From Patescibacteria group bacterium (lineage in GTDB: Bacteria; Patescibacteriota; WWE3; UBA101185; UBA10185): 64,000 bases of DNA. Shown here one piece after another: positions 21,801 through 55,735 of the stretch. How positions within the stretch are numbered: position 1 is the stretch's first letter; the number at the start of each line of letters is the position of its first letter. The stretch covers positions 108,670 to 172,669 of the forward strand of contig JAHJEV010000003.1 in NCBI GenBank assembly GCA_018825365.1. Direction: 5' to 3'. Both the position numbers and the translations under genes were made by a program. The notes under the pieces are model-generated. The model ran no database searches. It was not told the DNA's origin and worked only from the letters and a program-made list of their open reading frames with translations.

Positions 21801-21913
21801 TGAAACCTTCACAAACTGACAATGTGCCTATAAACCGATTCTGATAGAAGACAGGATGCTACAAGTAAAGAACATTCGATGCTTACATACTTCCACTATG
21901 CTAAAATTTAGCT

Positions 21914-22969
21914 ATGGGCAGACTAGAAATAGGTAGCAGGTGGAAGTTTGAGATAGTCGCGTTTCTGATAACTGGTCTTTTATTGTATAAGGTTGATTTT
22001 AGTATAGACACTGATTCTTATTTCTATTTTAAAAAGCATGATATATATTACGACTATCAAGCAGCCAAACAATTGCAACACGGAGAAAACCCATACAATA
22101 GAATATTAGAAGGTAACATGATTGAAAATGATAAATACGCTACTCAGCTGCCTCTTTATTTTTATTTTCTTGCCCTAATAGGGAAAATTTCTCAAAATAA
22201 CTTTGACGTGTTTTTGGAAAACTTTAGACTCGTTTTATTTTGGTTCCATTTAGCGGGGGGCGTTTTTATGTATCTCCTTTTTCGCCGTATCAATAAACTT
22301 TTTGTAGGATATTGTGCTGCAGTTTTTTATATGTTTAATGTATGGAGTTTAAATAGTTTTATGTATCTTAAACAAGATATGATAGCCATAGCCTTACTTG
22401 TTTTATCTTTTTACTTCTTCAGAAATAAAACTTATCGCTGGATCTCATACGTATTATTTGGGCTATCGCTTGGAATAAAACATATAGGAATTTTTGCTTT
22501 TCCAATATATCTTACACCAATTCTTTTTAAAGAAGATTCTTTTAAGCGCTTTGGTCTCAATATGTTACTGTTGTTCTCTACGATACTTATACCAGCAGCT
22601 CCTCTTTTAATTGATAATTCGTTAAGTTTTGTAAATTCCATGCTGTTTAGTCTTACGCGGAGTCCTCGCAGCTCTGAAATAATTTATGGGTACAACGAGT
22701 TGCTTGTAAAATACAACCCCTCTTTTAATAAAGGCACTTTATTTCAGCAGTTACTCCCAAGGCTGCCCCTTTTTATTGCCTCTATCCTGTGCTTACTAAT
22801 GCTCTTACTAAGAAAGATACCTTTATCTGTGTATCTTTTTATTTCAATACTGGTATTTGCTATATTTAACCCTGTAATTTTCCCTCAATATATAACATGG
22901 GTTACCCCAATGGCCCTTATTTCTCTAGTTGATTACACAGACCACGTTCAACTACAAAAACGTGTTTAA
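21914..22969 (+). CDS. polytopic integral membrane protein (possible GT-C/DUF2029-like glycosyltransferase)
   Basis: 351 aa with 9 or more hydrophobic helices. No soluble domain. Confidence 0.45.
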   Translation: MGRLEIGSRWKFEIVAFLITGLLLYKVDFSIDTDSYFYFKKHDIYYDYQAAKQLQHGENPYNRILEGNMIENDKYATQLPLYFYFLALIGKISQNNFDVFLENFRLVLFWFHLAGGVFMYLLFRRINKLFVGYCAAVFYMFNVWSLNSFMYLKQDMIAIALLVLSFYFFRNKTYRWISYVLFGLSLGIKHIGIFAFPIYLTPILFKEDSFKRFGLNMLLLFSTILIPAAPLLIDNSLSFVNSMLFSLTRSPRSSEIIYGYNELLVKYNPSFNKGTLFQQLLPRLPLFIASILCLLMLLLRKIPLSVYLFISILVFAIFNPVIFPQYITWVTPMALISLVDYTDHVQLQKRV

Positions 22970-32249: not shown

Positions 32250-32459
32250 AGGTTATTACATTATATATGTAATTTGAGAAAATTAAGAACATGTAAAAGA
32301 ATTATATTTTGGTTTCTATTTTCAACACTCTCTTTCATTTCCTGAGCCCACCTACAAACATTTTGGTACGGTCCCTCTACAAAGGAGAATCCAAAAAGAG
32401 TTTTGGTGGTGATAAGATGAAAATTGTTTTTTTTACATTTTTCTGATAAAATCTAACCA

Positions 32460-34475
32460 ATGAAAGTTAGTGAACTAAAAAGTTTCCAGAAATCAATTTT
32501 GCAGGGGATTCCAGATAAACTTCCCAATGTCAAACTATATGATGAGAATATAAACCATGCTCCGAAAAGAAAAGACATCCTTTCAAAAGAAGAAAAAAGG
32601 TTGGCAGTTAGAAACGCCTTACGCTATTTTCCTTCGAAATTTCATCAAGTGCTCGCTAAAGAATTTGCAAAAGAACTAGAGGAATATGGAAGAATTTACA
32701 TGTACCGCTTTAGACCAGATTACAGGATCTACGCCAGAAAAATAAGTGATTACCCACACAAATCAACACATGCTGCTGCAATTATGTTAATGATTAACAA
32801 CAATTTAGATACTTCCGTAGCGCAGCATCCATATGAATTGATTACCTATGGTGGTAACGGTGCGGTTTTCCAAAATTGGGCGCAATATCTTTTAACAATG
32901 AGATATCTGGCTACAATGACAGATGAACAAACGCTTGTTATGTATTCTGGTCATCCTTTGGGTCTATTCCCTTCACATAAAGACGCCCCGAGAGTTGTTG
33001 TCACAAACGGCATGATGGTACCAAACTATTCTAAACCTGACGATTGGGAACGGTTTAATGCTTTGGGTGTCACTCAATACGGCCAAATGACGGCCGGCTC
33101 ATATATGTATATCGGTCCCCAGGGGATAGTTCATGGCACGACAATTACCATTCTTAACGCCGCAAGAATTTTGCAAAAAGGATCTGACGATTTAGGAGGT
33201 AAAATTTTTGTGTCTTCAGGTCTGGGTGGTATGTCAGGCGCTCAAGCTAAAGCCGCCGTAATTGCAGGTGCGGTTGGGGTTATTGCGGAAGTTAATCCTA
33301 AAGCCATAGAAAAAAGGTACACCCAAGGGTGGCTTAATGAGGTTTTTCAGGATCTTGACAAACTTATAGACAGGCTAAAACTTGCTCAGAAAAATGAAGA
33401 GGCTGTCTCTCTCGGGTATCAGGGAAATATTGTAGATCTTTGGGAAAAACTTGTTCAAGAAAAGATCAAGGTCGATTTAGGGTCAGATCAAACCTCACTT
33501 CACAATCCTTATGGGGGTGGTTATTATCCTGTTAGCTTAACTTTTGAGGGAGCAAAAATAATGATGGTTTCCGATTCTCAAAAGTTTAAGGAGTATGTTC
33601 ATCAATCTCTAGTCAGACAGGTTGCAGCCATAAATAAGATGGTGGCGCGGGGAATGTATTTCTGGGACTACGGCAACGCCTTTTTACTAGAGGCTAGCAG
33701 AGCTGGCGCTGACATTCTTAAAGCCGACAAAACTTTTAAGTATCCTTCCTATGTAGAAGATATAATGGGTCCAAAATACTTTGATTATGGTTTTGGCCCT
33801 TTTAGATGGGTGTGTACATCGGGTGACCCCAAAGACTTAGCACTAACAGACAAAACTGCAGCTCGTGTCCTTGAGATTATTACAAAATCTGCTCACTCAG
33901 AAATCCGTCAACAACTGGAAGATAATATTAAGTGGATTACTAATGCCGATAAAAACAATTTAGTTGTTGGATCACAAGCTAGGATTCTCTATGCCAATTC
34001 TGAAGGAAGACTGAAGATAGCAAAAGCATTTAACGATCTAATTAGGAAACGGTTAATCTCTGCACCTATTGCTATAGGTAGAGACCATCACGATGTTTCA
34101 GGTGCGGATTCCCCATACAGGGAAACCTCTGATATTTACGACGGATCCCGCTATACAGCTGATATGGCTGTTCAGAATGTAATAGGGGATTCCTTCCGTG
34201 GGGCTACCTGGGTTTCAATTCACAATGGAGGTGGGGTTGGTTGGGGTGAGGTAATAAATAGTGGTTTTGGGTTGGTTTTGGATGGAAGTAAAGACGCCGA
34301 AAGAAGGCTTAATTCAATGATTTTTTGGGATATACATAACGGTTTGGCTAGAAGAAGCTGGGCAAGAAATAAAGGAGCTATACTGTCCATAAAGAGAGCT
34401 TTGAAGGAAAATCCAAAACTAAAAGTTACCGAACCTAACTCGGTTAGTGAGAAGATTGTTTCCTCTCTTTTTTGA
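32460..34475 (+). CDS. hutU: urocanate hydratase
   Basis: Urocanase signatures (MLMINNNLD, ITYGGNGAVFQNW, NAD-binding GLGGMSGAQ). About 100-aa N-terminal extension. Confidence 0.85.
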   Translation: MKVSELKSFQKSILQGIPDKLPNVKLYDENINHAPKRKDILSKEEKRLAVRNALRYFPSKFHQVLAKEFAKELEEYGRIYMYRFRPDYRIYARKISDYPHKSTHAAAIMLMINNNLDTSVAQHPYELITYGGNGAVFQNWAQYLLTMRYLATMTDEQTLVMYSGHPLGLFPSHKDAPRVVVTNGMMVPNYSKPDDWERFNALGVTQYGQMTAGSYMYIGPQGIVHGTTITILNAARILQKGSDDLGGKIFVSSGLGGMSGAQAKAAVIAGAVGVIAEVNPKAIEKRYTQGWLNEVFQDLDKLIDRLKLAQKNEEAVSLGYQGNIVDLWEKLVQEKIKVDLGSDQTSLHNPYGGGYYPVSLTFEGAKIMMVSDSQKFKEYVHQSLVRQVAAINKMVARGMYFWDYGNAFLLEASRAGADILKADKTFKYPSYVEDIMGPKYFDYGFGPFRWVCTSGDPKDLALTDKTAARVLEIITKSAHSEIRQQLEDNIKWITNADKNNLVVGSQARILYANSEGRLKIAKAFNDLIRKRLISAPIAIGRDHHDVSGADSPYRETSDIYDGSRYTADMAVQNVIGDSFRGATWVSIHNGGGVGWGEVINSGFGLVLDGSKDAERRLNSMIFWDIHNGLARRSWARNKGAILSIKRALKENPKLKVTEPNSVSEKIVSSLF

Positions 34476-34801: not shown

Positions 34802-34875
34802 TGGCTGGGGGACAGGGATTCGAACCCCAATAGCTGGGACCAAAACCCAGAGTCCTACCGTTAGACGATCCCCCA
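34802..34875 (-). tRNA. tRNA-Gln (anticodon TTG)
   Basis: U1-A72 acceptor tggggga/tccccca, anticodon stem ctggg/cccag with loop TTTTGGT, G73 and CCA encoded. Confidence 0.85.
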
Positions 34876-34938
34876 TTAATGTTGCAATTATAATAGTAAC
34901 TTAGATAAATGGCAAAGAAAAAATTGTTAGTACGATCT

Positions 34939-35015
34939 TGGTGGGCGGTAAAGGGATTGAACCTATGACCTCACGGATGTAAACCGTGCGCTCTAACCAG
35001 CTGAGCTAACCGCCC
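34939..35015 (-). tRNA. tRNA-Val (anticodon TAC)
   Basis: Acceptor gggcggt/accgccc, anticodon stem cacgg/ccgtg with loop TTTACAT, A73 and CCA. Confidence 0.85.
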
Positions 35016-35037
35016 TAAATCACGTTTGATAATAAAT

Positions 35038-35113
35038 TGGTGGGGAGGGAGGGACTCGAACCCTCATAGCCGGTTTTTCAGACCGGTGCCGTGACCATCT
35101 TGGCTACCGCCCC
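35038..35113 (-). tRNA. tRNA-Phe (anticodon GAA)
   Basis: Anticodon stem ccggt/accgg with loop CTGAAAA, T loop TTCGAGT, one C-U mismatch in the acceptor stem, A73 and CCA. Confidence 0.8.
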
Positions 35114-35127
35114 GTATTTACAAACTT

Positions 35128-35203
<76 letters not shown>

Positions 35204-35251
35204 ACAGTAAGATATTATAACAACAATCCTGTCGTTTTTTTATTCATACTT

Positions 35252-35336
35252 TGGTGGGCGGGACAGGACTTGAACCTGCATGGGTTGCCCCACTAGCTCC
35301 TTAAGCTAGCGCGTATGCCAATTCCGCCACCCGCCC
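35252..35336 (-). tRNA. tRNA-Leu (anticodon AAG), class II
   Basis: Acceptor gggcggg/cccgccc, anticodon stem ctagc/gctag with loop TTAAGGA (positions 34-36 = AAG), 13-nt variable arm, A73 and CCA. The loop context is identical to the Leu(CAG) loop TTCAGGA. Confidence 0.75.
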
Positions 35337-35409
35337 TGGATGGATAGATTATACTATATTACAGGAAAACGATAAGTCCCATAAATTTCTATGCTAAAAT
35401 ATATTTGTT

Positions 35410-37200
35410 ATGATAGATACTGGGGTTGGTAAACAAAAAACTATAAAAATACTTAAAAGCGCTGGTTCAAACCCACTTTTTATTACAGTTTTCATTTATC
35501 TGGTCAGTATAGTAATCGTAGGATGTTGGGGAAATTTTCCTTCGAATGATGATTTTTATTATCTTACGCAGATAAAAACTTTTTCAAATGGAATATTTAC
35601 AAAAAGTGCACTTATTGGTCCAACCTTTATTTTGCAGGGTCTTATGGGTTTTTTGTGGAGTAAATTTTTTGGGTTAAGCTATATATCCTTGAGGGTTCTC
35701 ACGATATTAGTAACAATTTTTTGTATTGTGGGGTTGGACAGGGTTTTTTCAGTCCTAAATGTCCAAAGGAAAATAAGAACCCTGACTTTAATACTAATCA
35801 CGTTTATTCCACAATTTTACGTCAGCTCTCTTAGTTTTATGACTGAGAATTACTTTCTGTTTTACATAATTTGGTCTTTATATTTTTTTCTATCGTACAT
35901 AAAAACAAGACGTGATAGATCTTTGCTTATCGCCTGCATTTTAGGCGGGCTCTCAATAATGATCAGGCAGTACGGGGTTGTGCTGTTGGTTGCCTATTTA
36001 ATTGTGTATGTTATTTCTAATCTTAAAAAAATAAACATTAGAAAACTTTTGCTAATTCTCATACCCTTCATAGTGTTTGGATGTATGGGTTTGTTTTGGC
36101 CGAAATTTAAGAGTTTGGGGGATCCCAAGAGCTTGAACATGCTGCTTTTTTTTGCTAGCGTGAATTTGTTTATTTCCAGAGTAACAAGCACATCAGTTCT
36201 CCCATATATAGGGTATTTACTTCTGCCATTTACGGCTTCTTTGTTTTTAAAACAAAGAAATTACATCAAAATTTTCACTTTAGCTATCGCACTACCCATG
36301 TCTTATGAATTCTTTAAAATTGATGTTTTTAAACTAAGAAATCTTTTTTACCTTGAGGGATTTTATGCGAGGCTAATGGTTAATATTAGAGAAAATCTAT
36401 TTAACAATACCCTTTTTAAGCTGTTCCTTTCATATTTAATTTCCGTATCTCTATTAGCCATTGCTTTTTATCTGATTGACAAGCTGATTGGAAAAATTAA
36501 AGATACAAAAAACAAGGGAGTCGCTGTTGCTAAAGCTAATATAAATTTTCACAAGTTAACACTGCTTTTATTGATATTGGGTTTTTATGTTATCGCGGTT
36601 GTTACCGACAGGGTTTTTGACAGATACTTGGTAAATTTCTTCATCATTTTACTAATATATGTTGCGACAAGCGCTCAAGAGAGGGGTTTTTCGATACACT
36701 GGACGACTATACTAATGACCGCCTTTATTTGCGTAGTGACTTTTTTCTTATCCTTTCACCATTACAGGGAACTGCAGCTTAAATGGAAATTTGCCGATAA
36801 ACTTATGGCTATGGGTGTTGGGAAGTATCAAATATTTATCGATAACGTTTATGCCAGAACAGCTTATATGGAATTAATAAACAATTATGACGGAAGATAC
36901 GCGGCGAAACCAGAAAACTACGACCCTATCTGTTTTGTGCAGGAATACGTAAAACAGCAAAGCAACGCGCTGAATTCACTAATTGTTTATGTTAATAACA
37001 GGGCATTTGTTAGGAAATATTTTGCAAACCCCACTGTACTAAACGCGGGACTGCTGAAAGAAAGAAGCAATCATTTTGACTCCACGGATATTTTGATGAT
37101 CGACGAGGAATATCCAAGTCCTGTCTACAACCTTCTTGGTAAAAGAACCTTTGTCAGGGCTTTTTGCACGGAACCTATTCAGAAAGTAAAAGGGATTTAG
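35410..37200 (+). CDS. GT-C fold membrane glycosyltransferase (ArnT/PMT-like)
   Basis: 596 aa with more than 12 TM helices. N-terminal DD/FYY loop. Architecture is similar to 13909..15462 and 40651..42279. Confidence 0.5.
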   Translation: MIDTGVGKQKTIKILKSAGSNPLFITVFIYLVSIVIVGCWGNFPSNDDFYYLTQIKTFSNGIFTKSALIGPTFILQGLMGFLWSKFFGLSYISLRVLTILVTIFCIVGLDRVFSVLNVQRKIRTLTLILITFIPQFYVSSLSFMTENYFLFYIIWSLYFFLSYIKTRRDRSLLIACILGGLSIMIRQYGVVLLVAYLIVYVISNLKKINIRKLLLILIPFIVFGCMGLFWPKFKSLGDPKSLNMLLFFASVNLFISRVTSTSVLPYIGYLLLPFTASLFLKQRNYIKIFTLAIALPMSYEFFKIDVFKLRNLFYLEGFYARLMVNIRENLFNNTLFKLFLSYLISVSLLAIAFYLIDKLIGKIKDTKNKGVAVAKANINFHKLTLLLLILGFYVIAVVTDRVFDRYLVNFFIILLIYVATSAQERGFSIHWTTILMTAFICVVTFFLSFHHYRELQLKWKFADKLMAMGVGKYQIFIDNVYARTAYMELINNYDGRYAAKPENYDPICFVQEYVKQQSNALNSLIVYVNNRAFVRKYFANPTVLNAGLLKERSNHFDSTDILMIDEEYPSPVYNLLGKRTFVRAFCTEPIQKVKGI

Positions 37201-45022: not shown

Positions 45023-45513
45023 AAACCTCTTTTACGACGCTCTATTCTAGCACTTTTTAAGGAAAATTTCAGAAAATCGTACTTGAACACCGTGTTGGAA
45101 ACTTACTGAAAAACGTATTTCACAAAATAGTCTGCAAATATAAAACCCCCTTCTGATTTAAGGAGGGGGTAAGAACCAAACGGCAACTCCAACGACTGTG
45201 ACCGCCAAGGGAAGCAGGATATAGATCGTGTATGTTGCCACAAGTTTTTCGCTCACGTAGAAAGAACATTAGCAAACTAACCAAGGCGACAGCACACATA
45301 GCTGTCAAGATCAGCTTACCTAACGTGGTCATTTTAGTCTCCTTTTCCTGTTTTTTGGCTGTCGAAATAGTACCAACAGCTTAATATTATGCCTATTGTA
45401 ACACAGAAACAGGAATCGAACCGTTTTTTAGAAGATAGGGTGTTGTAAAAATACCAATTTGCTACATAATTTTGAGTTGGTATAACAATGAAAACGCTGG
45501 TTGAAAGTTAAAT

Positions 45514-45699
45514 CTACTTAAGCTTTTGAACTTCTTTGTGAAGTGTGTGTTTTCTCAGCTTTGGGTTGTATTTTTTCAATTCAATCTTTTCCGTGCTATT
45601 AACACGATTTTTCTCGGTTATGTAGGAACGCATACCGGTTTCGGTGCATTCCATAGCTATTAATATTCGATTACCTTTCTTTTTTGCCACGTATTGCAA
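45514..45699 (-). CDS. rpmG: 50S ribosomal protein L33
   Basis: AKKKGNRILIAMECTETG...KYNPKLRKHTLHKE is the bL33 zinc-ribbon consensus. Confidence 0.85.
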   Translation of the reverse strand: MQYVAKKKGNRILIAMECTETGMRSYITEKNRVNSTEKIELKKYNPKLRKHTLHKEVQKLK

Positions 45700-45734
45700 T
45701 ATATTATAAAATCAACTAAATTTCAACTATCTTT

Positions 45735-48176
45735 ATGGAAAGCTACGATCACTCAAAAATAGAAGAAAAATGGAAAGATAAGTGGTTTGAAGATAATGTT
45801 TATGAAGCAATAGACTTTTCCGACAAGCCCAAAAAATACATCCTTGCTGAATTTCCATATCCATCGGGCAAGGCCTTACACGTCGGACATGCGATGAGGT
45901 ACACCGTACCTGATGTTTACTCAAGATTTTTAAGAATGAATGGATATAACGTCATGTTTCCGATGGGTTGGGATGCGTTCGGACTTCCAGCCGAAAATTA
46001 CGCAATAAAAACCGGCGGACATCCTTCAAAGATCAATACTGACATTATCCCGCACTACAAAGATTGCATGATGAGAATGGGCTATGGAGTTGATTGGAAC
46101 CGTGAAATAAACACCACGGACCCAAATTATTACAAGTGGACGCAGTGGTTGTTTTTGAAGTTTTTTGAACAAGGTCTCGCGCAATACAAGGAAACCCCTG
46201 TTTGGTGGTGTGAGAAATTAAAGACAGTTTTAGCCGATGAGGAAGTACTAAACGATAAAGACGGAAATAAAATATCAGAAAGAGATGGAAATCCCGTTGA
46301 AAAGAAAATGCTCAAGCAGTGGGTTCTAAAAATACCTCAGTATGCTGAAAAACTACTGCGGGGATTAAAGGACTTGGATTTTCCTGAAGCTATAAAGATT
46401 GCACAAACAAATTGGATAGGAAAAAGCGAAGGTGCTGAGATTGATTTTGAAATAGAAGGAGAAAAGGTGAGTATTTTCACAACAAGACCAGACACTATTT
46501 ATGGGATTACCTTTATGGGAATTGCTCCGGAAAATCCTTTAATAACTAAGATTTTTGAGCATATTAAAAACAAGGATGCGGTTTCTGAATATATAAATAA
46601 ATCAAAAAATAAATCTGATCTTGAAAAACAAATGTTAAAAGAAAAAACCGGGGTTGAACTTAAAGGAATTACCGCAAAATGCTTACTTATTGGTAGGGAA
46701 GTTCCGATTTACGTTGCCGACTATGTTTTGATGGATTATGGAACCGGAGTTGTTATGGCAGTTCCGGCACACGATGAAAGAGACTTCAGCTTTGCTAAAA
46801 AGTATGGGATTGAAATTATTAAAGTTATTGAAGGAAATGATAAAAAAACAGATTTGTATATAGGTGAGGGAATAATGATAAACAGTGATAAATACAATGG
46901 CATGAAATCAGAAGACTTCAAACTAAAAATAGTTGAAGATTTAGAGCGGGAGGGTGTTGGGAAGAAGGCTGTAAGTTACAAAATCAGAGACTGGGTATTC
47001 TCAAGACAGAGGTATTGGGGTGAGCCATTTCCACTATTACATCTTGAAGATGGTTCTGTAGTGGCAATCTGCGACACAAATAACCCCAAGCAAGTAAAAG
47101 AGATGCTTCCCGTTACGTTACCAGATGTTCCCGATTACTCACCTACTTCTGACGGATCTTCGCCCTTAGATAAAAATAAAGAGTGGGTAAATATTGAATT
47201 TAAAGGTAGAAAAGCAAAAAGAGAGACCGATACAATGCCTAATTGGGCCGGATCTTGTTGGTACTACCTTAGATACTGCGATCCAAAAAATGACGAGACA
47301 TTTGCAGATATGGAAAAACTTAAATACTGGTTGCCTGTTGATAAGTATTTTGGAGGTGCGGAACATACAACGATGCACCTACTCTACTCACGTTTCTGGC
47401 ATAAGTTCTTATATGATCAAAAACTTGTTCCGACCGAAGAACCCTATCAATGGAGGTTAAACGGCGGGCTTTTACTGGGAGCAGATGGAAGAAAAATGTC
47501 CAAGTCCTACGGAAATACGGTAGAACCTATGGAGTATGTAGATCAATATGGTGCGGACTCAACAAGAATGAGCATTTGCTTTTTAGGGCCGTATGAAGAC
47601 ACATATCCTTGGAATACAAACAGCATTAAGGCTGTTCGTAAATTGATCTCAAATGTTTACCAGATGAAAAACAAGATTACTAACGACCCCGCATCGAAGG
47701 AAATTACAAAAGCGTACAACTTAATGCTTAAAAATGCTACGAGTATGATTGAAGCGCTGAAAATGAATACTTGCATAAGTGAGTTTATGATTTTTATTAA
47801 TATTCTTAAAAAAGAAACGAAAATAAATAAGGAAATTTACAAAGGCTTTATAAAAGCATTCGCTCCGTTCGCACCTTTCGCTTCTGAAGATATTTGGCAG
47901 GAAATTAATGGCTATAGAAAGTGGAAAAAGGAAAACAGTGTGCACTTACAGCAGTGGCCAAAATTCGATATAAACGTGCTAGAAGAAGACACAGTTTTAA
48001 TACCGGTTCAAATAAACGGCAGGGTTAAAGCAGAAATTGAAATTACAAGGGATGCTGATGAAAATGGAGCCAAAAAAACCGCTTTAAACAACGAGAAAAT
48101 AAAGGGTCTAATCGGGGATAAAAAGCTACTTAGTGTTATTTATGTAAAAAATAGAATTATTAATTTACTTCTTTGA
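45735..48176 (+). CDS. leuS: leucine--tRNA ligase
   Basis: HIGH-type motif (PYPSGKALHVGH), KMSKS, the editing domain, and a typical N-terminus IEEKWKDKW. Confidence 0.9.
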   Translation: MESYDHSKIEEKWKDKWFEDNVYEAIDFSDKPKKYILAEFPYPSGKALHVGHAMRYTVPDVYSRFLRMNGYNVMFPMGWDAFGLPAENYAIKTGGHPSKINTDIIPHYKDCMMRMGYGVDWNREINTTDPNYYKWTQWLFLKFFEQGLAQYKETPVWWCEKLKTVLADEEVLNDKDGNKISERDGNPVEKKMLKQWVLKIPQYAEKLLRGLKDLDFPEAIKIAQTNWIGKSEGAEIDFEIEGEKVSIFTTRPDTIYGITFMGIAPENPLITKIFEHIKNKDAVSEYINKSKNKSDLEKQMLKEKTGVELKGITAKCLLIGREVPIYVADYVLMDYGTGVVMAVPAHDERDFSFAKKYGIEIIKVIEGNDKKTDLYIGEGIMINSDKYNGMKSEDFKLKIVEDLEREGVGKKAVSYKIRDWVFSRQRYWGEPFPLLHLEDGSVVAICDTNNPKQVKEMLPVTLPDVPDYSPTSDGSSPLDKNKEWVNIEFKGRKAKRETDTMPNWAGSCWYYLRYCDPKNDETFADMEKLKYWLPVDKYFGGAEHTTMHLLYSRFWHKFLYDQKLVPTEEPYQWRLNGGLLLGADGRKMSKSYGNTVEPMEYVDQYGADSTRMSICFLGPYEDTYPWNTNSIKAVRKLISNVYQMKNKITNDPASKEITKAYNLMLKNATSMIEALKMNTCISEFMIFINILKKETKINKEIYKGFIKAFAPFAPFASEDIWQEINGYRKWKKENSVHLQQWPKFDINVLEEDTVLIPVQINGRVKAEIEITRDADENGAKKTALNNEKIKGLIGDKKLLSVIYVKNRIINLLL

Positions 48177-48201
48177 CATTTTCAGAATAACAAATTAAAA
48201 T
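48173..48201 (+). promoter_or_regulatory. consensus sigma70-type promoter for the downstream ncRNA candidate
   Basis: -35 TTGACA (48173-48178), a 17-nt spacer, and -10 TAAAAT (48196-48201). It overlaps the leuS stop. Confidence 0.5.
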
Positions 48202-48208
48202 ACTACTA

Positions 48209-48418
48209 GGTCTAATCGGGAGACTGAAGTTGGCTCGTTCGTGGATCGTTCGTGGAATGTCTGACAAGCTCGTAGATGGATGTTCGTAACTTGTTCAGTC
48301 CCGATGTTTAAACGGTGTCACACCGCACACGTTAAACCTGAGCAAATCATCTAAATCGGTGTTGCTTAAAGGGCTGTGCGGTTGTCTCCTCTTACAACTT
48401 CTCAGCCCGATTTTTTTT
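48209..48418 (+). ncRNA. candidate structured ncRNA of about 210 nt (function unknown)
   Basis: Locally elevated GC. Long-range complementary pairs (atcgggagactgaa/ttcagtcccgat, caccgcacac/tgtgcggttg). It ends in a strong intrinsic terminator and is bounded by convergent genes. Confidence 0.45.
48371..48418 (+). terminator. intrinsic terminator
   Basis: gggctg-tgc-ggttgt-[ctcctctt]-acaact-tct-cagccc followed by T8. Confidence 0.65.
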
Positions 48419-48428
48419 AAAGATGTAG

Positions 48429-49169
48429 CTATTTCAATCTAAAGGTTACGGTAACCGTTTTTGAAACTGTTGTGGACCCCGTCTCAATTGGGAGACCCCC
48501 GCCTCCCCCACCGAAACCTTTTAAATCACCGTACGCTACCGACCCGTTGTAATTAGAACCCTCAACTATACTAATGACCTCCCCCAATTTCTTTCCGCCT
48601 GCTTTGGCGATCTTTTCAGCTTTAGTTTTGGCATCAACTATGGCTTTGACTAAAATAGAAGCCTCGTCAACTTGGGTCTGATCTATAGTGAGATTTGGAC
48701 CGTACATTGTCGTTTTTTCAAACTTAACTAACAACGCTGTAAGTGCATCGGATTTAGTTAAATCCCTTAAAGTTATTGAGATTGAATAATTCGCATGCCA
48801 ATCACCCGGTTTATAAACTGTAGTACCCTTTTCATAGTAAGGATCCTGGTTTTGATAGATATTCATATTTTGAGTAAGAATATCCTTATCCGGAATACCA
48901 AAATTTGACAGTGCACCAGCAATTTCGTTGGCCCTTGCAGCTGCTTCGTCTACGGCCAACTGCTTGTCCTTATTCTGAATATCCACACTAACACTAAAGG
49001 TAGCTATCTGGTTGGAAACTTGAGATTGCGCCGAGCCTATAACAGTTATTGTTTTTACGGTCTTACATTTATAGAAAAGGTAGTATACAATGCACAAAAC
49101 TAGAAGTGATGTGGCCAAAAAAATAACTAAACGTATATGTCTTCTACACAGGGCTATGATTTTTTCCAT
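48429..49169 (-). CDS. SIMPL/DUF541 (YggE-like) periplasmic protein
   Basis: N-terminal TM/signal helix, a two-lobed DUF541-like pattern, and a Gly-rich C-terminus GFGGGGGGLPIE. Confidence 0.55.
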   Translation of the reverse strand: MEKIIALCRRHIRLVIFLATSLLVLCIVYYLFYKCKTVKTITVIGSAQSQVSNQIATFSVSVDIQNKDKQLAVDEAAARANEIAGALSNFGIPDKDILTQNMNIYQNQDPYYEKGTTVYKPGDWHANYSISITLRDLTKSDALTALLVKFEKTTMYGPNLTIDQTQVDEASILVKAIVDAKTKAEKIAKAGGKKLGEVISIVEGSNYNGSVAYGDLKGFGGGGGGLPIETGSTTVSKTVTVTFRLK

Positions 49170-49185
49170 GTGATAATATTATCAC

Positions 49186-49698
49186 ATGTCAGGGGTTCAA
49201 TTTATTGTGTTTATCCGAGGCTTACCCGGAGCGGGAAAGTCTACCATCTCCAACAAAATATGCAACATTACTGGCTACGTACGTATAGATCCTGACTTAA
49301 TACCAGATAAATACAATATTTCGCTGCATAAAGAGAGGATGAGAAAATACAAAATTTGCCTCAATGAAGCTATAAAGTCTATTAGAAATGGTCTTTCAAT
49401 AGTATGGGCTCAACCTTGGAGAAAAATCAAAAATATCCAGCTTACAATTAACCGCATAAATAACCTTAACGTTAAACCTATATTAGTTAATATAAATATC
49501 CCAGTCGAGGAATCGTGGAATCGTAGCAAAAATAGATTTTATAACAATAGACAAGATTTTGATAATTACATATCCAAGTTTGCTGTTTTTGATAATAATT
49601 TTAAAATCGATTCCGTTGATATTGAGGGTACTGAAGACATCAACACAAATGTAGACAGAATAACGAAATTCTTAAGGAATAATGTGCCAGATGAATAA
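49186..49698 (+). CDS. P-loop NTPase (AAA_33/zeta-toxin-like small kinase)
   Basis: Walker A GLPGAGKST at the N-terminus. 170 aa. Confidence 0.5.
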   Translation: MSGVQFIVFIRGLPGAGKSTISNKICNITGYVRIDPDLIPDKYNISLHKERMRKYKICLNEAIKSIRNGLSIVWAQPWRKIKNIQLTINRINNLNVKPILVNINIPVEESWNRSKNRFYNNRQDFDNYISKFAVFDNNFKIDSVDIEGTEDINTNVDRITKFLRNNVPDE

Positions 49699-55274: not shown

Positions 55275-55318
55275 ACACCAAAACCCCTGTACTGAATTAA
55301 AATGCTAAAATATACAAA

Positions 55319-55735
55319 ATGAACATATTTATTGGCTACAAATATAAAAACAATAAAAATAAGGACACACTACAAAATAACTTAGAGAAAATATCCAATA
55401 AACTGGAAGAAGCATGCCACAAGTGTTTTGTTTTGGGCAGGGATGTGCATGGCTGGCATATAAACCACATCTCAACATCAAAAAGTATTTCCCCGATAAT
55501 TTCAAATATTAGAAAATCTGACCTTTTATTCGCATTTATTGATCATCCCGGCGAAAGCCTGGGACTGAGATTTGAAACACTTTGTGCAAAGGTACTGGGA
55601 AAGAAAATCATCATAGCCATTAAACGAAATCTTTCGGAAAAATTCTTTAGAAAATTGGCAACTGATACACTAGAATTTGAAAATATCGATGATTTAATTG
55701 CTAAAATTCCTAATTATTTTCAAAATCTAGATTAA
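55319..55735 (+). CDS. nucleoside 2-deoxyribosyltransferase-like / DNPH1(Rcl)-like protein (paralog of 5507..5938)
   Basis: HPGESLGLRFETLCAKVLGKKIIIAIK has the same signature and length as the 5507 gene. It lies directly upstream of tmk. Confidence 0.5.
   Translation: MNIFIGYKYKNNKNKDTLQNNLEKISNKLEEACHKCFVLGRDVHGWHINHISTSKSISPIISNIRKSDLLFAFIDHPGESLGLRFETLCAKVLGKKIIIAIKRNLSEKFFRKLATDTLEFENIDDLIAKIPNYFQNLD

What the first reader, a model, noticed from the sequence alone, without database searches (positions are those of the whole stretch)
48173..48418. Stand-alone structured ncRNA candidate of about 210 nt with consensus promoter and strong terminator downstream of leuS
TTGACA-17-TAAAAT sits exactly at the leuS stop. 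The downstream 200 nt is GC-enriched relative to its surroundings and contains two long-range helices (48217-48230 with 48295-48306, and 48325-48336 with 48388-48399), a duplicated cgttcgtgga motif, and a terminator whose 5' arm overlaps the second helix, giving riboswitch-like mutually exclusive structures. No gene follows, since the next gene is convergent. It does not match the RNase P, SRP or tmRNA consensus motifs by eye, so it may be a 6S-like or novel regulatory RNA.
Basis: seen in the sequence. Interest (0 to 1): 0.55.

Follow-up and report, generated by a model that had tools for sequence, protein, structure and literature searches.

The report
Conserved pseudoknotted small RNA gene downstream of leuS
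Between the leucyl-tRNA synthetase gene and a convergent gene, this candidate-phylum (Patescibacteria) bacterium and its relatives carry a roughly 210-nt RNA gene with its own promoter and terminator and a conserved fold, which matches no described RNA family and whose function is unknown.

Summary
The observation mostly holds. TTGACA-17-TAAAAT overlaps the leuS stop. A -18.8 kcal/mol hairpin plus U8 ends the unit 10 nt before the convergent SIMPL/YggE gene. There is no conserved ORF, and no Rfam hit even at E<=10.

The region is a real, conserved element. Twelve metagenomic or MAG loci carry a 165-250 nt unit in the same leuS-to-SIMPL gap; nine of them are distinct sequences differing from the window, and every locus with enough upstream sequence shows TTGAnn-16/18-TAnnnT. 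Closer relatives such as L002, L079, L102 and L109 have only a gap of about 0-90 nt there.

Sequence turns over fast, but the architecture persists:
- a variable 5' hairpin;
- a hairpin whose loop (UCACACCG) pairs with CGGUGU just upstream of the terminator, an H-type pseudoknot;
- the terminator itself.

Covariation supports these helices: 83.8% of cells paired against 30-49% when partners are slid, and 9 pairs with two-sided changes.

It is not 6S, SRP, RNase P, tmRNA or a T-box. A riboswitch reading is weak, because there is no downstream gene and no conserved core.

Best reading: a lineage-restricted, independently transcribed structured small RNA of a new family. Its mode of action is inferred only, either cis-antisense to the SIMPL 3' end or trans-acting.

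The parts
45735..48176 (+). leuS (813 aa), the upstream flanking gene; its stop codon lies inside the -35 hexamer
   Evidence: Pfam tRNA-synt_1, the LeuRS editing domain and Anticodon_1.
48173..48178 (+). -35 hexamer TTGACA
   Evidence: TTGAnn is conserved at the same position in 8 of 8 homologous loci with enough upstream sequence.
48196..48201 (+). -10 hexamer TAAAAT
   Evidence: TAAAAT is the commonest -10-like hexamer directly upstream of apparently leaderless genes in this window.
48208..48418 (+). Predicted transcript of about 210 nt; the start is inferred as about 7 nt after the -10 hexamer
   Evidence: Inferred from the promoter and terminator. No expression data.
48215..48305 (+). P1, a variable 5' hairpin domain with base AUCGGGA/UCCCGAU; its apex holds the window-specific tandem duplication at 48231-48252
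   Evidence: The base is conserved in L097 and L100. The domain is replaced by a short, unrelated hairpin in L001, L092 and L098. It is not more stable than shuffles in the window (z +0.4).
48306..48337 (+). P2 hairpin (GUUUAAAC/GUUAAAC) presenting the conserved loop block B1, UCACACCG (48318-48325)
   Evidence: The P2 stem covaries among the type B sequences and L105 (CAGCAG/CUGCUG, CAGUAG/CUACUG, GCAAG/CUUGC).
48320..48325 (+). 5' strand of the pseudoknot, ACACCG
   Evidence: Pairs with 48357-48362. RNAalifold predicts this helix independently. L105 shows a compensatory A-U to G-C change.
48357..48362 (+). 3' strand of the pseudoknot, CGGUGU; part of the conserved block GGUGUUGCUUAAAGGGCU (48358-48375)
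48371..48408 (+). Intrinsic terminator hairpin with loop CUCCUCUU (48386-48393)
   Evidence: -18.8 kcal/mol, z -5.0. The base pairs covary (G-C to A-U, U-A to A-U).
48411..48418 (+). U8 tract of the terminator
   Evidence: All homologues carry T5-T8 here.
48323..48329 (+). CCGCACA, a possible alternative partner of UGUGCGG (48375-48381) in the terminator's 5' arm; a candidate antiterminator, unproven
   Evidence: Read from the sequence; 82.5% of cells paired, but with no covariation.
48429..49169 (-). Convergent SIMPL/YggE-family gene; its stop codon lies 10 nt beyond the U tract

Best explanation
Window 48173-48418 is a small non-coding RNA gene that is transcribed on its own. It consists of a sigma-70-type promoter overlapping the leuS stop codon, a transcript of about 210 nt, and a strong intrinsic terminator that abuts the stop codon of the convergent SIMPL/YggE gene. 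It belongs to an RNA family not present in Rfam. The family is confined to one clade of Patescibacteria (WWE3-like) and always sits in this leuS-to-SIMPL gap.

The RNA has four parts:
- a fast-evolving 5' hairpin domain (P1);
- a hairpin (P2) whose loop pairs with 5-7 nt lying 0-8 nt upstream of the terminator, which makes an H-type pseudoknot;
- an A/U-rich spacer;
- the terminator.

Shown by the data: the transcription signals and their conservation, the helices and their covariation, the absence of a conserved ORF, and the absence of any match to a known family.

Inferred: that the RNA is expressed, and what it does. My preferred mode of action is a stand-alone regulatory RNA, not a leader or riboswitch.
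- The conserved pseudoknot-plus-terminator domain would be the shape-recognised or stabilising core.
- The SIMPL gene has no terminator of its own, and the shared hairpin has only a weak U tract in the reverse direction. SIMPL transcripts should therefore overlap the RNA in antisense.
- This makes cis-antisense control of the SIMPL mRNA 3' end the most concrete mechanism, at about 0.2-0.25 probability.
- Trans-acting base pairing or protein binding is about equally likely.
For: - **Promoter.** TTGAnn-16/18-TAnnnT is found in all 8 loci with enough upstream sequence, although the spacer sequences differ. TAAAAT is the genome's usual -10 hexamer.
- **Synteny.** A unit of 165-250 nt lies between leuS and SIMPL in L001, L092, L096, L097, L098/L099, L100, L101, L105, L106-L108, L110 and L112.
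- **Structure.** On alignment A2, 83.8% of cells are paired, against 30-49% with slid partners. Nine pairs change on both sides, against 0-4. None of 500 shuffles reaches the observed value.
- **Independent prediction.** RNAalifold predicts the B1:B2 helix and the terminator without being told.
- **Pseudoknot.** The helix is ACACCG/CGGUGU in types A and B, GCACCGA/UUGGUGC in L105, CCCUGA/UCAGGG in L110, AUCCUA/UAGGAU in L112 and UCUGG/CCAGA in L106. My Fisher combination of the loop-shuffle p values over five variants gives about 0.005.
- **Stability.** All ten RNAs fold better than shuffles, with mean z -2.8.
- **Strand.** G-U pairs in the terminator (column 121-167 in 7 of 8 sequences) and in the pseudoknot fit only the plus strand.
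- **Non-coding.** There is no conserved ORF.
- **Not a known family.** No Rfam family matches at E<=10 in the window, and none at E<=5 in 9 homologous loci. ARAGORN finds nothing.
- **Single copy.** The covariance model finds only one copy in the 64-kb window.
Against: - There are no expression data.
- The pseudoknot statistics are modest for any single sequence (loop-shuffle p 0.03-0.3), and I chose the loops and pre-terminator segments by eye.
- Within types A and B the pseudoknot is almost invariant. The covariation rests on L105, L101 and the type C sequences.
- The homology of the type C RNAs (L106, L110, L112) is inferred from synteny, architecture and a P1 motif shared with L105. The model R1 does not detect them.
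- In the window itself, local hairpins compete with the pseudoknot.
- The element is missing from several related lineages at this locus. It is therefore dispensable, or has moved.
- The anti-Shine-Dalgarno-like CUCCUC loop motif is not significantly enriched (6 of 10 against 3.6 expected, P about 0.11).
- No target was identified; the duplex search was uninformative.
Confidence: 0.55

Rival explanations
1. It is a riboswitch-like or attenuator element. The pseudoknot would be an aptamer for a ligand, a protein or a tRNA. When it forms (B1:B2) the terminator can fold. When it does not, B1 pairs with the terminator's 5' arm (CCGCACA 48323-48329 with UGUGCGG 48375-48381), and transcription reads through as antisense into the convergent SIMPL gene.
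For: - The architecture matches small pseudoknot riboswitches: a hairpin loop paired with a 3' segment immediately upstream of an intrinsic terminator.
- B1 can pair either with B2 or with the terminator arm. The alternative helix is paired in 82.5% of cells, against 14-52% with slid partners, and has one compensatory change in L105.
- B1, B2 and the 8-nt spacer are nearly invariant in types A and B, while the flanking genes are 70-89% identical.
Against: - No co-oriented gene follows in any locus.
- The core sequence is not conserved between types A/B and type C, so there is no common binding pocket.
- The alternative helix is only 4-7 bp and shows no covariation above shuffles (147 of 500).
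- That helix is absent from L097 and from type C.
- Set against terminators of about -19 kcal/mol, it is weak.
- No riboswitch family matches.
Confidence: 0.1
2. It is a divergent copy of a known housekeeping RNA (6S, SRP, RNase P or tmRNA) that Rfam models fail to recognise in this candidate-phylum lineage.
For: The size (about 200 nt), the strong promoter and the terminator would suit 6S RNA. Reduced genomes keep few accessory RNAs. In the window alone, a closing stem between the 5' and 3' ends can be drawn (AUCGGGAGACUGAAGUUG with CAACUUCUCAGCCCGAU; read from the sequence).
Against: - No Rfam match even at E<=10, and ARAGORN finds no tmRNA.
- The consensus fold is several hairpins plus a pseudoknot, not a rod with a central bubble.
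- The window's 5'/3' closing stem is absent from L097, L100, L001 and L098.
- The GGAAAGUCC motif of RNase P and the domain IV motifs of SRP RNA are absent.
- The element is missing from this locus in related genomes, and its sequence turns over far faster than a housekeeping RNA core would.
Confidence: 0.04
3. It is not an RNA gene. The region would be only the shared terminator and 3' untranslated spacer of the convergent leuS and SIMPL genes, with a fortuitous promoter-like sequence. The similarity among loci would reflect recent common ancestry.
For: - The only terminator for leuS, and the only hairpin after SIMPL, lies here.
- A promoter match of 11 of 12 is not rare in this AT-rich window (6 observed against 3.7 expected).
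- P1 in the window is no more stable than shuffles.
- Related genomes manage without the element.
Against: - Both promoter hexamers are retained in 8 of 8 loci, although the spacer and the downstream sequence diverge.
- The RNA body has diverged more than the flanking coding DNA (0.58 against 0.78-0.89 for the window against L001 and L092). Yet specific blocks and helices are kept, with compensatory changes.
- A terminator alone needs about 45 nt, not 165-250 nt maintained down to 53% SIMPL amino-acid identity.
Confidence: 0.12
4. It encodes a small protein: a leaderless or short ORF, for example a type I toxin-like hydrophobic peptide such as the 27-aa ORF MLLKGLCGCLLLQLLSPIFFKDVAISI at 48359-48442.
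For: A hydrophobic 27-codon ORF with a GTG start begins in the conserved block. Leaderless translation appears common in this genome.
Against: - In the homologues this frame runs for only 11-31 codons and is shifted by indels (sequences, read by eye).
- No ORF or peptide is shared among the ten RNAs.
- There is no SD sequence, and the GTG is not at the 5' end.
- The conserved block is invariant at would-be wobble positions as well.
Confidence: 0.02

Closest known systems
Stand-alone bacterial small RNAs with their own promoter and Rho-independent terminator (for example RsaE/RoxS-type riboregulators of Firmicutes; recalled from general knowledge)
   Same: It is a discrete transcription unit of about 200 nt in an intergenic region. 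It has stem-loops followed by an intrinsic terminator, no ORF, a narrow phylogenetic range and fast sequence turnover.
   Different: There is no sequence or Rfam relationship. The most conserved part is an intramolecular pseudoknot, not a single-stranded seed. The C/U-rich loop motif is not significantly enriched. No target is known.
cis-Antisense RNAs at convergent gene ends and bidirectional terminators
   Same: The RNA's terminator lies 10 nt from the SIMPL stop codon and is the only hairpin available to end SIMPL transcription. The two transcripts must therefore overlap. Perfect complementarity is maintained automatically, which tolerates the observed fast sequence drift.
   Different: The overlap is inferred, not observed. 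The antisense mechanism does not explain the conserved pseudoknot or the invariant blocks.
Small H-type pseudoknot riboswitch aptamers placed just before a terminator (preQ1-I/II, SAM-II/V, fluoride)
   Same: A hairpin loop pairs with a segment immediately 5' of an intrinsic terminator, preceded by an A-rich linker (AAAU). The loop strand has a possible competing pairing with the terminator arm.
   Different: There is no downstream regulated gene. No nucleotide core is conserved across the whole family. No Rfam match. The competing helix lacks covariation.
6S RNA (Rfam RF00013)
   Same: Similar length, a strong housekeeping-type promoter and a non-coding transcript.
   Different: The 5' and 3' ends do not form a conserved closing stem. 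There is no central bubble and no Rfam hit. The element is patchy among close relatives.

Membership tests
6S RNA | Match to the Rfam 6S covariance models | tested here: not met
   No hit at gathering score, at E<=10 on 48100-48500, or at E<=5 on 9 homologous loci.
6S RNA | A rod-like fold: the 5' and 3' ends pair in a closing stem, with a large central bubble and a terminal stem | tested here: not met
   The MFE and consensus folds are several hairpins plus a pseudoknot. The closing stem that can be drawn in the window is not present in the homologues.
6S RNA | Binds the sigma-70 RNA polymerase holoenzyme and templates product-RNA synthesis | not testable with these tools
   Requires biochemistry.
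Riboswitch or cis-regulatory leader | Lies in the 5' untranslated region of a co-oriented regulated gene | tested here: not met
   The next gene is convergent in the window and in every homologous locus.
Riboswitch or cis-regulatory leader | Aptamer core nucleotides conserved across all members | tested here: not met
   Blocks B1 and B2 are invariant only within types A and B. L106, L110 and L112 keep the architecture with different sequences.
Riboswitch or cis-regulatory leader | Mutually exclusive terminator and antiterminator pairings | tested here: inconclusive
   The CCGYA/URCGG alternative is paired in 82.5% of cells but shows no covariation. It is absent from L097 and from type C.
T-box leader | Lies upstream of an aminoacyl-tRNA synthetase gene, with Stem I and the T-box sequence; matches the Rfam T-box model | tested here: not met
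   The element lies downstream of leuS, and there is no Rfam hit.
SRP RNA, RNase P RNA, tmRNA | Match to the Rfam models or to ARAGORN's tmRNA detection | tested here: not met
Intrinsic (Rho-independent) terminator | A G+C-rich hairpin directly followed by a U tract | tested here: met
   48371-48408 at -18.8 kcal/mol, z -5.0, then GA and U8. It is conserved and covaries in the homologues. The simple pattern scan did not call it.
Sigma-70-type promoter | -35 and -10 hexamers separated by a 16-18 nt spacer, conserved in orthologous positions | tested here: met
   11 of 12 match in the window. TTGAnn-16/18-TAnnnT in 8 of 8 loci. Promoter activity itself was not tested.
H-type pseudoknot | A hairpin loop pairs with a downstream single strand, with covariation | tested here: inconclusive
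   In favour: 5-7 bp of complementarity in 10 of 10 RNAs, one compensatory A-U to G-C change, different helix sequences in type C, and prediction by RNAalifold. Against: p values for single sequences are 0.03-0.3, and some non-cognate pairs also reach 6 bp.
Small-protein gene or type I toxin | A conserved ORF with translation signals | tested here: not met

The most novel reading that the evidence does not exclude
The conserved pseudoknot next to the terminator may be a sensor of a metabolite, a protein or a tRNA. Such a sensor would set how much transcription escapes as antisense RNA into the convergent SIMPL/YggE gene. That would be a new riboswitch-like class in a candidate-phylum lineage that regulates by convergent antisense read-through instead of controlling a downstream ORF. 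More broadly, it may be a new shape-recognised RNA with a dedicated protein partner in Patescibacteria.
Probability: 0.12. Interest if true: 0.72.

Novelty: new member of a known kind. Interest (0 to 1): 0.5.

Why it matters
Almost nothing is known about regulatory RNAs in the Candidate Phyla Radiation. These organisms have tiny genomes, few regulators and, judging from this window, many leaderless mRNAs.

This RNA gene keeps its promoter, pseudoknot and terminator across lineages whose neighbouring protein has diverged to about 53% identity. Selection is therefore maintaining it.

It gives a concrete, testable entry point for RNA-based regulation in these uncultivated bacteria, through metatranscriptomes and structure probing. 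It could also be submitted as a new Rfam family. It is not a surprise in kind: narrow-range structured small RNAs are found regularly.

Tried and rejected
- **BLASTN and nhmmer** of the region against 80 leuS loci found only L001, and only weakly. Sequence search alone is nearly blind here.
- **The metagenome scan** with the 18-mer GGTGTTGCTTAAAGGGCT returned 16 loci. Only L092 and L096 are relevant. The others belong to an unrelated marine repeat family or are chance hits.
- **A protein search with the leuS C-terminal 250 aa** returned nothing closer than 51% identity and gave no new loci.
- **The covariance model R1** found no second copy in the window. The 17-bit hit at 45468-45576 lies antisense to an rpmG-like ORF and is spurious. 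R1 does not reach the type C loci.
- **Target prediction** with RNAduplex against 59 translation-initiation regions gave only long, gapped and meaningless duplexes. An earlier run timed out.
- **The anti-Shine-Dalgarno idea** came from the CUCCUC or CCUCC motif in loops, and from CCUCCUUUCU in L105, which I recognise from memory as resembling the 16S rRNA 3' tail (not checked with a tool). It was rejected as evidence: 6 of 10 RNAs have the motif against 3.6 expected, P about 0.11.
- **Also considered and rejected:**
  - A tRNA-Leu or T-box-like reading of UGGUGU/ACACCG, which would need the acceptor stem to unwind and has no Rfam support.
  - Origin by duplication of the leuS 3' end, since only a 12-nt direct repeat supports it.
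  - A group I intron, a self-cleaving ribozyme (pistol-like) or a type III antitoxin; none has an Rfam hit or the required neighbouring genes.
- **Literature searches** found nothing on this element.
Full report
**What is in the window**

leuS (45735-48176, plus strand, 813 aa; Pfam tRNA-synt_1, LeuRS editing domain, Anticodon_1) ends in a TGA that lies inside TTGACA (48173-48178). Seventeen bases further on is TAAAAT (48196-48201). A convergent SIMPL/YggE-family gene (48429-49169, minus strand) has its stop codon 10 nt after a run of eight T at 48411-48418.

The 38 nt before the T run fold into an interrupted hairpin, GGGCUG.G.GGUUGU-CUCCUCUU-ACAACU.C.CAGCCC. Its energy is -18.8 kcal/mol, with z -5.0 against dinucleotide shuffles. 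The simple terminator scan missed it because the stem is interrupted. From the spacing, the transcript should start near 48208 and be about 210 nt long.

The second helix, at 48325-48336 with 48388-48399, is not complementary. The nearest true complementarity is 48323-48329 (CCGCACA) with 48375-48381 (UGUGCGG).

GC is 0.42-0.47, higher than the leuS 3' end but no higher than the SIMPL 3' end. The whole-RNA fold is only marginally better than shuffles in the window (z about -1.7). A promoter match of 11 of 12 is not rare in this AT-rich window: 6 sites against 3.7 in shuffles. From the window alone, then, the case is suggestive but not compelling.

**Known families**

Rfam 15 gives only tRNAs in the window at gathering score. 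On 48100-48500 it gives nothing relevant at E<=10, only a plasmodium snoRNA at E 6.8. ARAGORN finds no tRNA or tmRNA. Nine homologous loci also have no Rfam match at E<=5. The element is therefore not a recognisable 6S, SRP, RNase P, tmRNA, T-box, riboswitch or ribozyme family member.

**Relatives**

The leuS protein places the window in Patescibacteria. The best named hits are MAGs labelled WWE3 or Saccharibacteria.

In L001 (leuS 87% identical) the same gap holds a unit of similar length. It shares the promoter, two short blocks and the terminator, but little else. In more distant relatives (L002, L063, L079, L005, L006) leuS is followed almost directly by the convergent SIMPL gene, with a gap of about 0-90 nt, so the element is absent there.

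A metagenome scan with the conserved 18-mer found an identical copy (L096) and a variant (L092) in the same JGI sample. The other 14 hits are unrelated.

Homologues of the SIMPL protein were traced to their contigs. This gave further syntenic copies:
- L097, L098/L099 and L100;
- L101 (3' half only);
- L105 and L106-L108;
- L110;
- L111 (terminator only);
- L112 (5' end cut).

One further contig has a 212-nt gap but no DNA was available. Loci L102 and L109 have gaps of only 26-37 nt.

The element therefore persists in lineages whose SIMPL protein is only 53-57% identical to the window's, but it is patchy. The covariance model built here finds no copy in the held flanks of the loci that lack it.

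**The promoter is conserved**

All eight loci with enough upstream sequence carry TTGAnn, a spacer of 16-18 nt and TAnnnT at the end of leuS. The forms are TTGACA-17-TAAAAT, TTGATA-16-TAAAAT (three times), TTGATT-17-TAAAAT, TTGAAG-17-TAGAAT, TTGATT-18-TATAAT and TTGACT-18-TAATAT. The spacer sequences differ among them.

In the window, TAAAAT-like hexamers end 0-12 nt upstream of the start codon in 16 of 59 crude gene calls, where about 1.8 would be expected. This hexamer is therefore the genome's working -10 element, and many mRNAs appear to be leaderless.

**Architecture**

Three sequence types share one plan.
- Type A comprises the window, L097 and L100.
- Type B comprises L001, L092 and L098.
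- Types A and B differ completely in the 5' hairpin domain P1. It is about 90 nt in the window, with a base of AUCGGGA/UCCCGAU, and 30-35 nt in type B.
- Both types share block B1 (UCACACCGYA) in the loop of hairpin P2.
- Both also share block B2 (GGUGUUGCUUAAAGGGCU), of which GGGCU opens the terminator.
- L105 has diverged versions of both blocks.
- Type C (L106, L110, L112) has different sequences but the same order of elements: P1, an enclosing helix (CCCGC/GCGGG), a P2 hairpin, a short linker and the terminator. Its P1 has a 3' arm of GCAA(R)C(A)ACCA, a motif shared with L105.

**Helices and covariation**

On the eight-sequence alignment A2, my structure of P2a, P2b, pseudoknot and terminator is paired in 83.8% of cells. 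The figure is 30-49% when the 3' partners are slid by 1-3 columns. Nine pairs change on both sides, against 0-4 in the slid controls. None of 500 column shuffles reaches the observed percentage paired, number of covarying pairs or covariation score.

Examples of the changes are:
- P2b: CAGCAG/CUGCUG (L001), CAGUAG/CUACUG (L098) and GCAAG/CUUGC (L105);
- terminator base: GGGCUG/CAGCCC against GGGCUA/UAGCCC and GGGCAG/CUGCCC.

G-U pairs fit only the plus strand (column 121-167 in 7 of 8 sequences).

RNAalifold was run on A2 without my structure. It independently returns B1:B2 (columns 35-40 with 95-100) and the terminator as the consensus. All ten full-length RNAs fold better than dinucleotide shuffles, with z from -1.6 to -4.5 and a mean of -2.8.

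**The pseudoknot**

B1 sits in the P2 loop and pairs with the start of B2. The helix is:
- ACACCG/CGGUGU in types A and B, with G-U or a 5-bp version in some;
- GCACCGA/UUGGUGC in L105, an A-U to G-C double change;
- CACACUGA/UUGGUGUG in L101.

In type C the P2 loop is likewise complementary to the 5-6 nt lying 0-2 nt before the terminator: CCCUGA/UCAGGG (L110), AUCCUA/UAGGAU (L112) and UCUGG/CCAGA (L106).

The statistics are moderate.
- Loop shuffles reach the observed helix in 3-30% of trials for a single sequence. My Fisher combination over five independent variants gives about 0.005.
- Non-cognate loop and pre-terminator pairs mostly give 2-5 Watson-Crick pairs, but occasionally 6.
- The helix energies are -5 to -9 kcal/mol.

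In the window, local hairpins compete with the pseudoknot. One is an inner P2 stem. The other is a P3 hairpin, GAGCAAA...UGUUGCUU. I therefore rate the pseudoknot as supported but not proven. An A-rich linker (AAAU, or GAAU) precedes its 3' strand in nearly all variants, as is usual for compact H-type pseudoknots (general knowledge).

**Non-coding**

The longest ORFs in the ten RNAs run from 5 to 42 codons on either strand and share no peptide. The hydrophobic 27-codon GTG frame that starts in B2 in the window is 11-31 codons long and is frame-shifted in the homologues (sequences).

**Rate of change**

Between the window and the type B loci, the RNA is 58-59% identical while the flanking 240 nt of leuS and SIMPL are 78-89% identical. 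Under this scoring, 58-59% is close to what unrelated AT-rich sequence gives. Within type A the RNA is 68-70% identical, similar to the flanks. The body therefore drifts quickly, and the 5' domain has been replaced, while the promoter, B1, B2 and the terminator are held. The window's tandem 11-nt duplication lies in the apex of P1, which shows that this part tolerates indels.

**What it most likely is and does**

Shown by the data: a conserved transcription unit with a promoter and a terminator; a conserved fold with covariation; no coding potential; a single copy in 64 kb; no known family.

Inferred: expression and function.

A riboswitch or leader reading fails on its defining context, because no co-oriented gene follows. 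It also fails on a conserved core. Its only positive point is the alternative pairing of B1 with the terminator's 5' arm. That pairing is short, lacks covariation, and is missing from L097 and from type C.

A 6S reading fails on both fold and model match.

A reading as terminator and spacer only does not explain the retained promoter, or the 165-250 nt of structured sequence.

I therefore favour a stand-alone regulatory small RNA of a new, lineage-restricted family. The most concrete mechanism the anatomy offers is cis-antisense.
- SIMPL has no terminator of its own.
- In the reverse direction the shared hairpin is followed by only UUUAAG (0-5 U across the variants).
- SIMPL transcripts must therefore at least enter, and probably traverse, the RNA gene in antisense.

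This mechanism would tolerate the fast sequence drift. It does not by itself explain the pseudoknot and the invariant blocks, which suggest recognition by shape, by a protein or through tertiary structure. Trans-acting base pairing remains possible. The anti-Shine-Dalgarno-like loop motif that first suggested it is not significantly enriched, only 14 of 59 genes here have an SD-like sequence, and the target search was uninformative.

**Verdict**

The feature is real and conserved, and it is a new family of a known kind: a bacterial small non-coding RNA. My probability is about 0.8 that it is a functional structured RNA, about 0.55 for the stand-alone regulatory RNA reading as stated, and no more than 0.25 for any single mode of action. 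Interest is moderate. Such RNAs are essentially unexplored in the Candidate Phyla Radiation, and this one is well defined and testable, but narrow-range small RNAs of unknown function are common finds.

Noticed in passing
window, whole (for example 55300-55320, 35390-35410, 21895-21915, 32440-32460): Many genes look leaderless. In 16 of 59 crude gene calls a TA[ATG]AAT hexamer ends 0-12 nt before the start codon, where about 1.8 would be expected. Only 14 of 59 have an SD-like GGAG, GAGG or AGGA.
   Followed up: partly
window 49167-49188: The divergent SIMPL (minus strand) and AAA_33 (plus strand) genes have start codons separated by a perfect 16-nt palindrome, CAT-GTGATAATATTATCAC-ATG. This looks like a pair of back-to-back leaderless promoters, or an operator.
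   Followed up: no
window 48105-48116 and 48209-48220: An exact 12-nt direct repeat, GGTCTAATCGGG, occurs inside the leuS coding region and at the predicted 5' end of the RNA. The chance expectation in this 800-nt stretch is about 0.02. The repeat is absent from L001 and its meaning is unknown.
   Followed up: partly
window 45023-45734: The apparently long gap upstream of leuS holds unlisted small genes on the minus strand: an rpmG (ribosomal protein L33)-like ORF at 45514-45699, and a 70-aa ORF at 45120-45332 with an SD sequence and a nearby hairpin. The weak covariance-model hit at 45468-45576 is antisense to rpmG and is spurious.
   Followed up: partly
L082, L083, L084, L086, L089, L090, L093, L094 (marine metagenome contigs): The 18-mer GGTGTTGCTTAAAGGGCT also occurs in an unrelated repeat family with units of about 49 nt (..CTCGTAAGGTGTTGCTTAAAGGGCTTCGGGGCGGCGCGCGCTCAAA..), present in several copies per contig. 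Its nature was not examined.
   Followed up: no
L092 and L096 (both JGI Ga0180009); L001 against L092: The type A and type B variants of the RNA coexist in one metagenome. L001 and L092 are 97% identical in the SIMPL 3' end but only 81% in the leuS 3' end, while the window and L092 are 89% identical in the leuS 3' end. This suggests recombination around the RNA locus.
   Followed up: no
window 34805-35336 (minus strand) and elsewhere: Thirteen tRNA genes lie in the 64-kb window, including a cluster of five on the minus strand at 34805-35336.
   Followed up: no
L105 2182-2394 (minus strand of the locus; J1/2 region of the RNA): The L105 variant contains CCUCCUUUCUA, which I recognise from memory as resembling the 3' terminal sequence of 16S rRNA (anti-SD plus tail); this was not checked with a tool. 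Across the family the anti-SD-like motif is not significantly enriched.
   Followed up: partly
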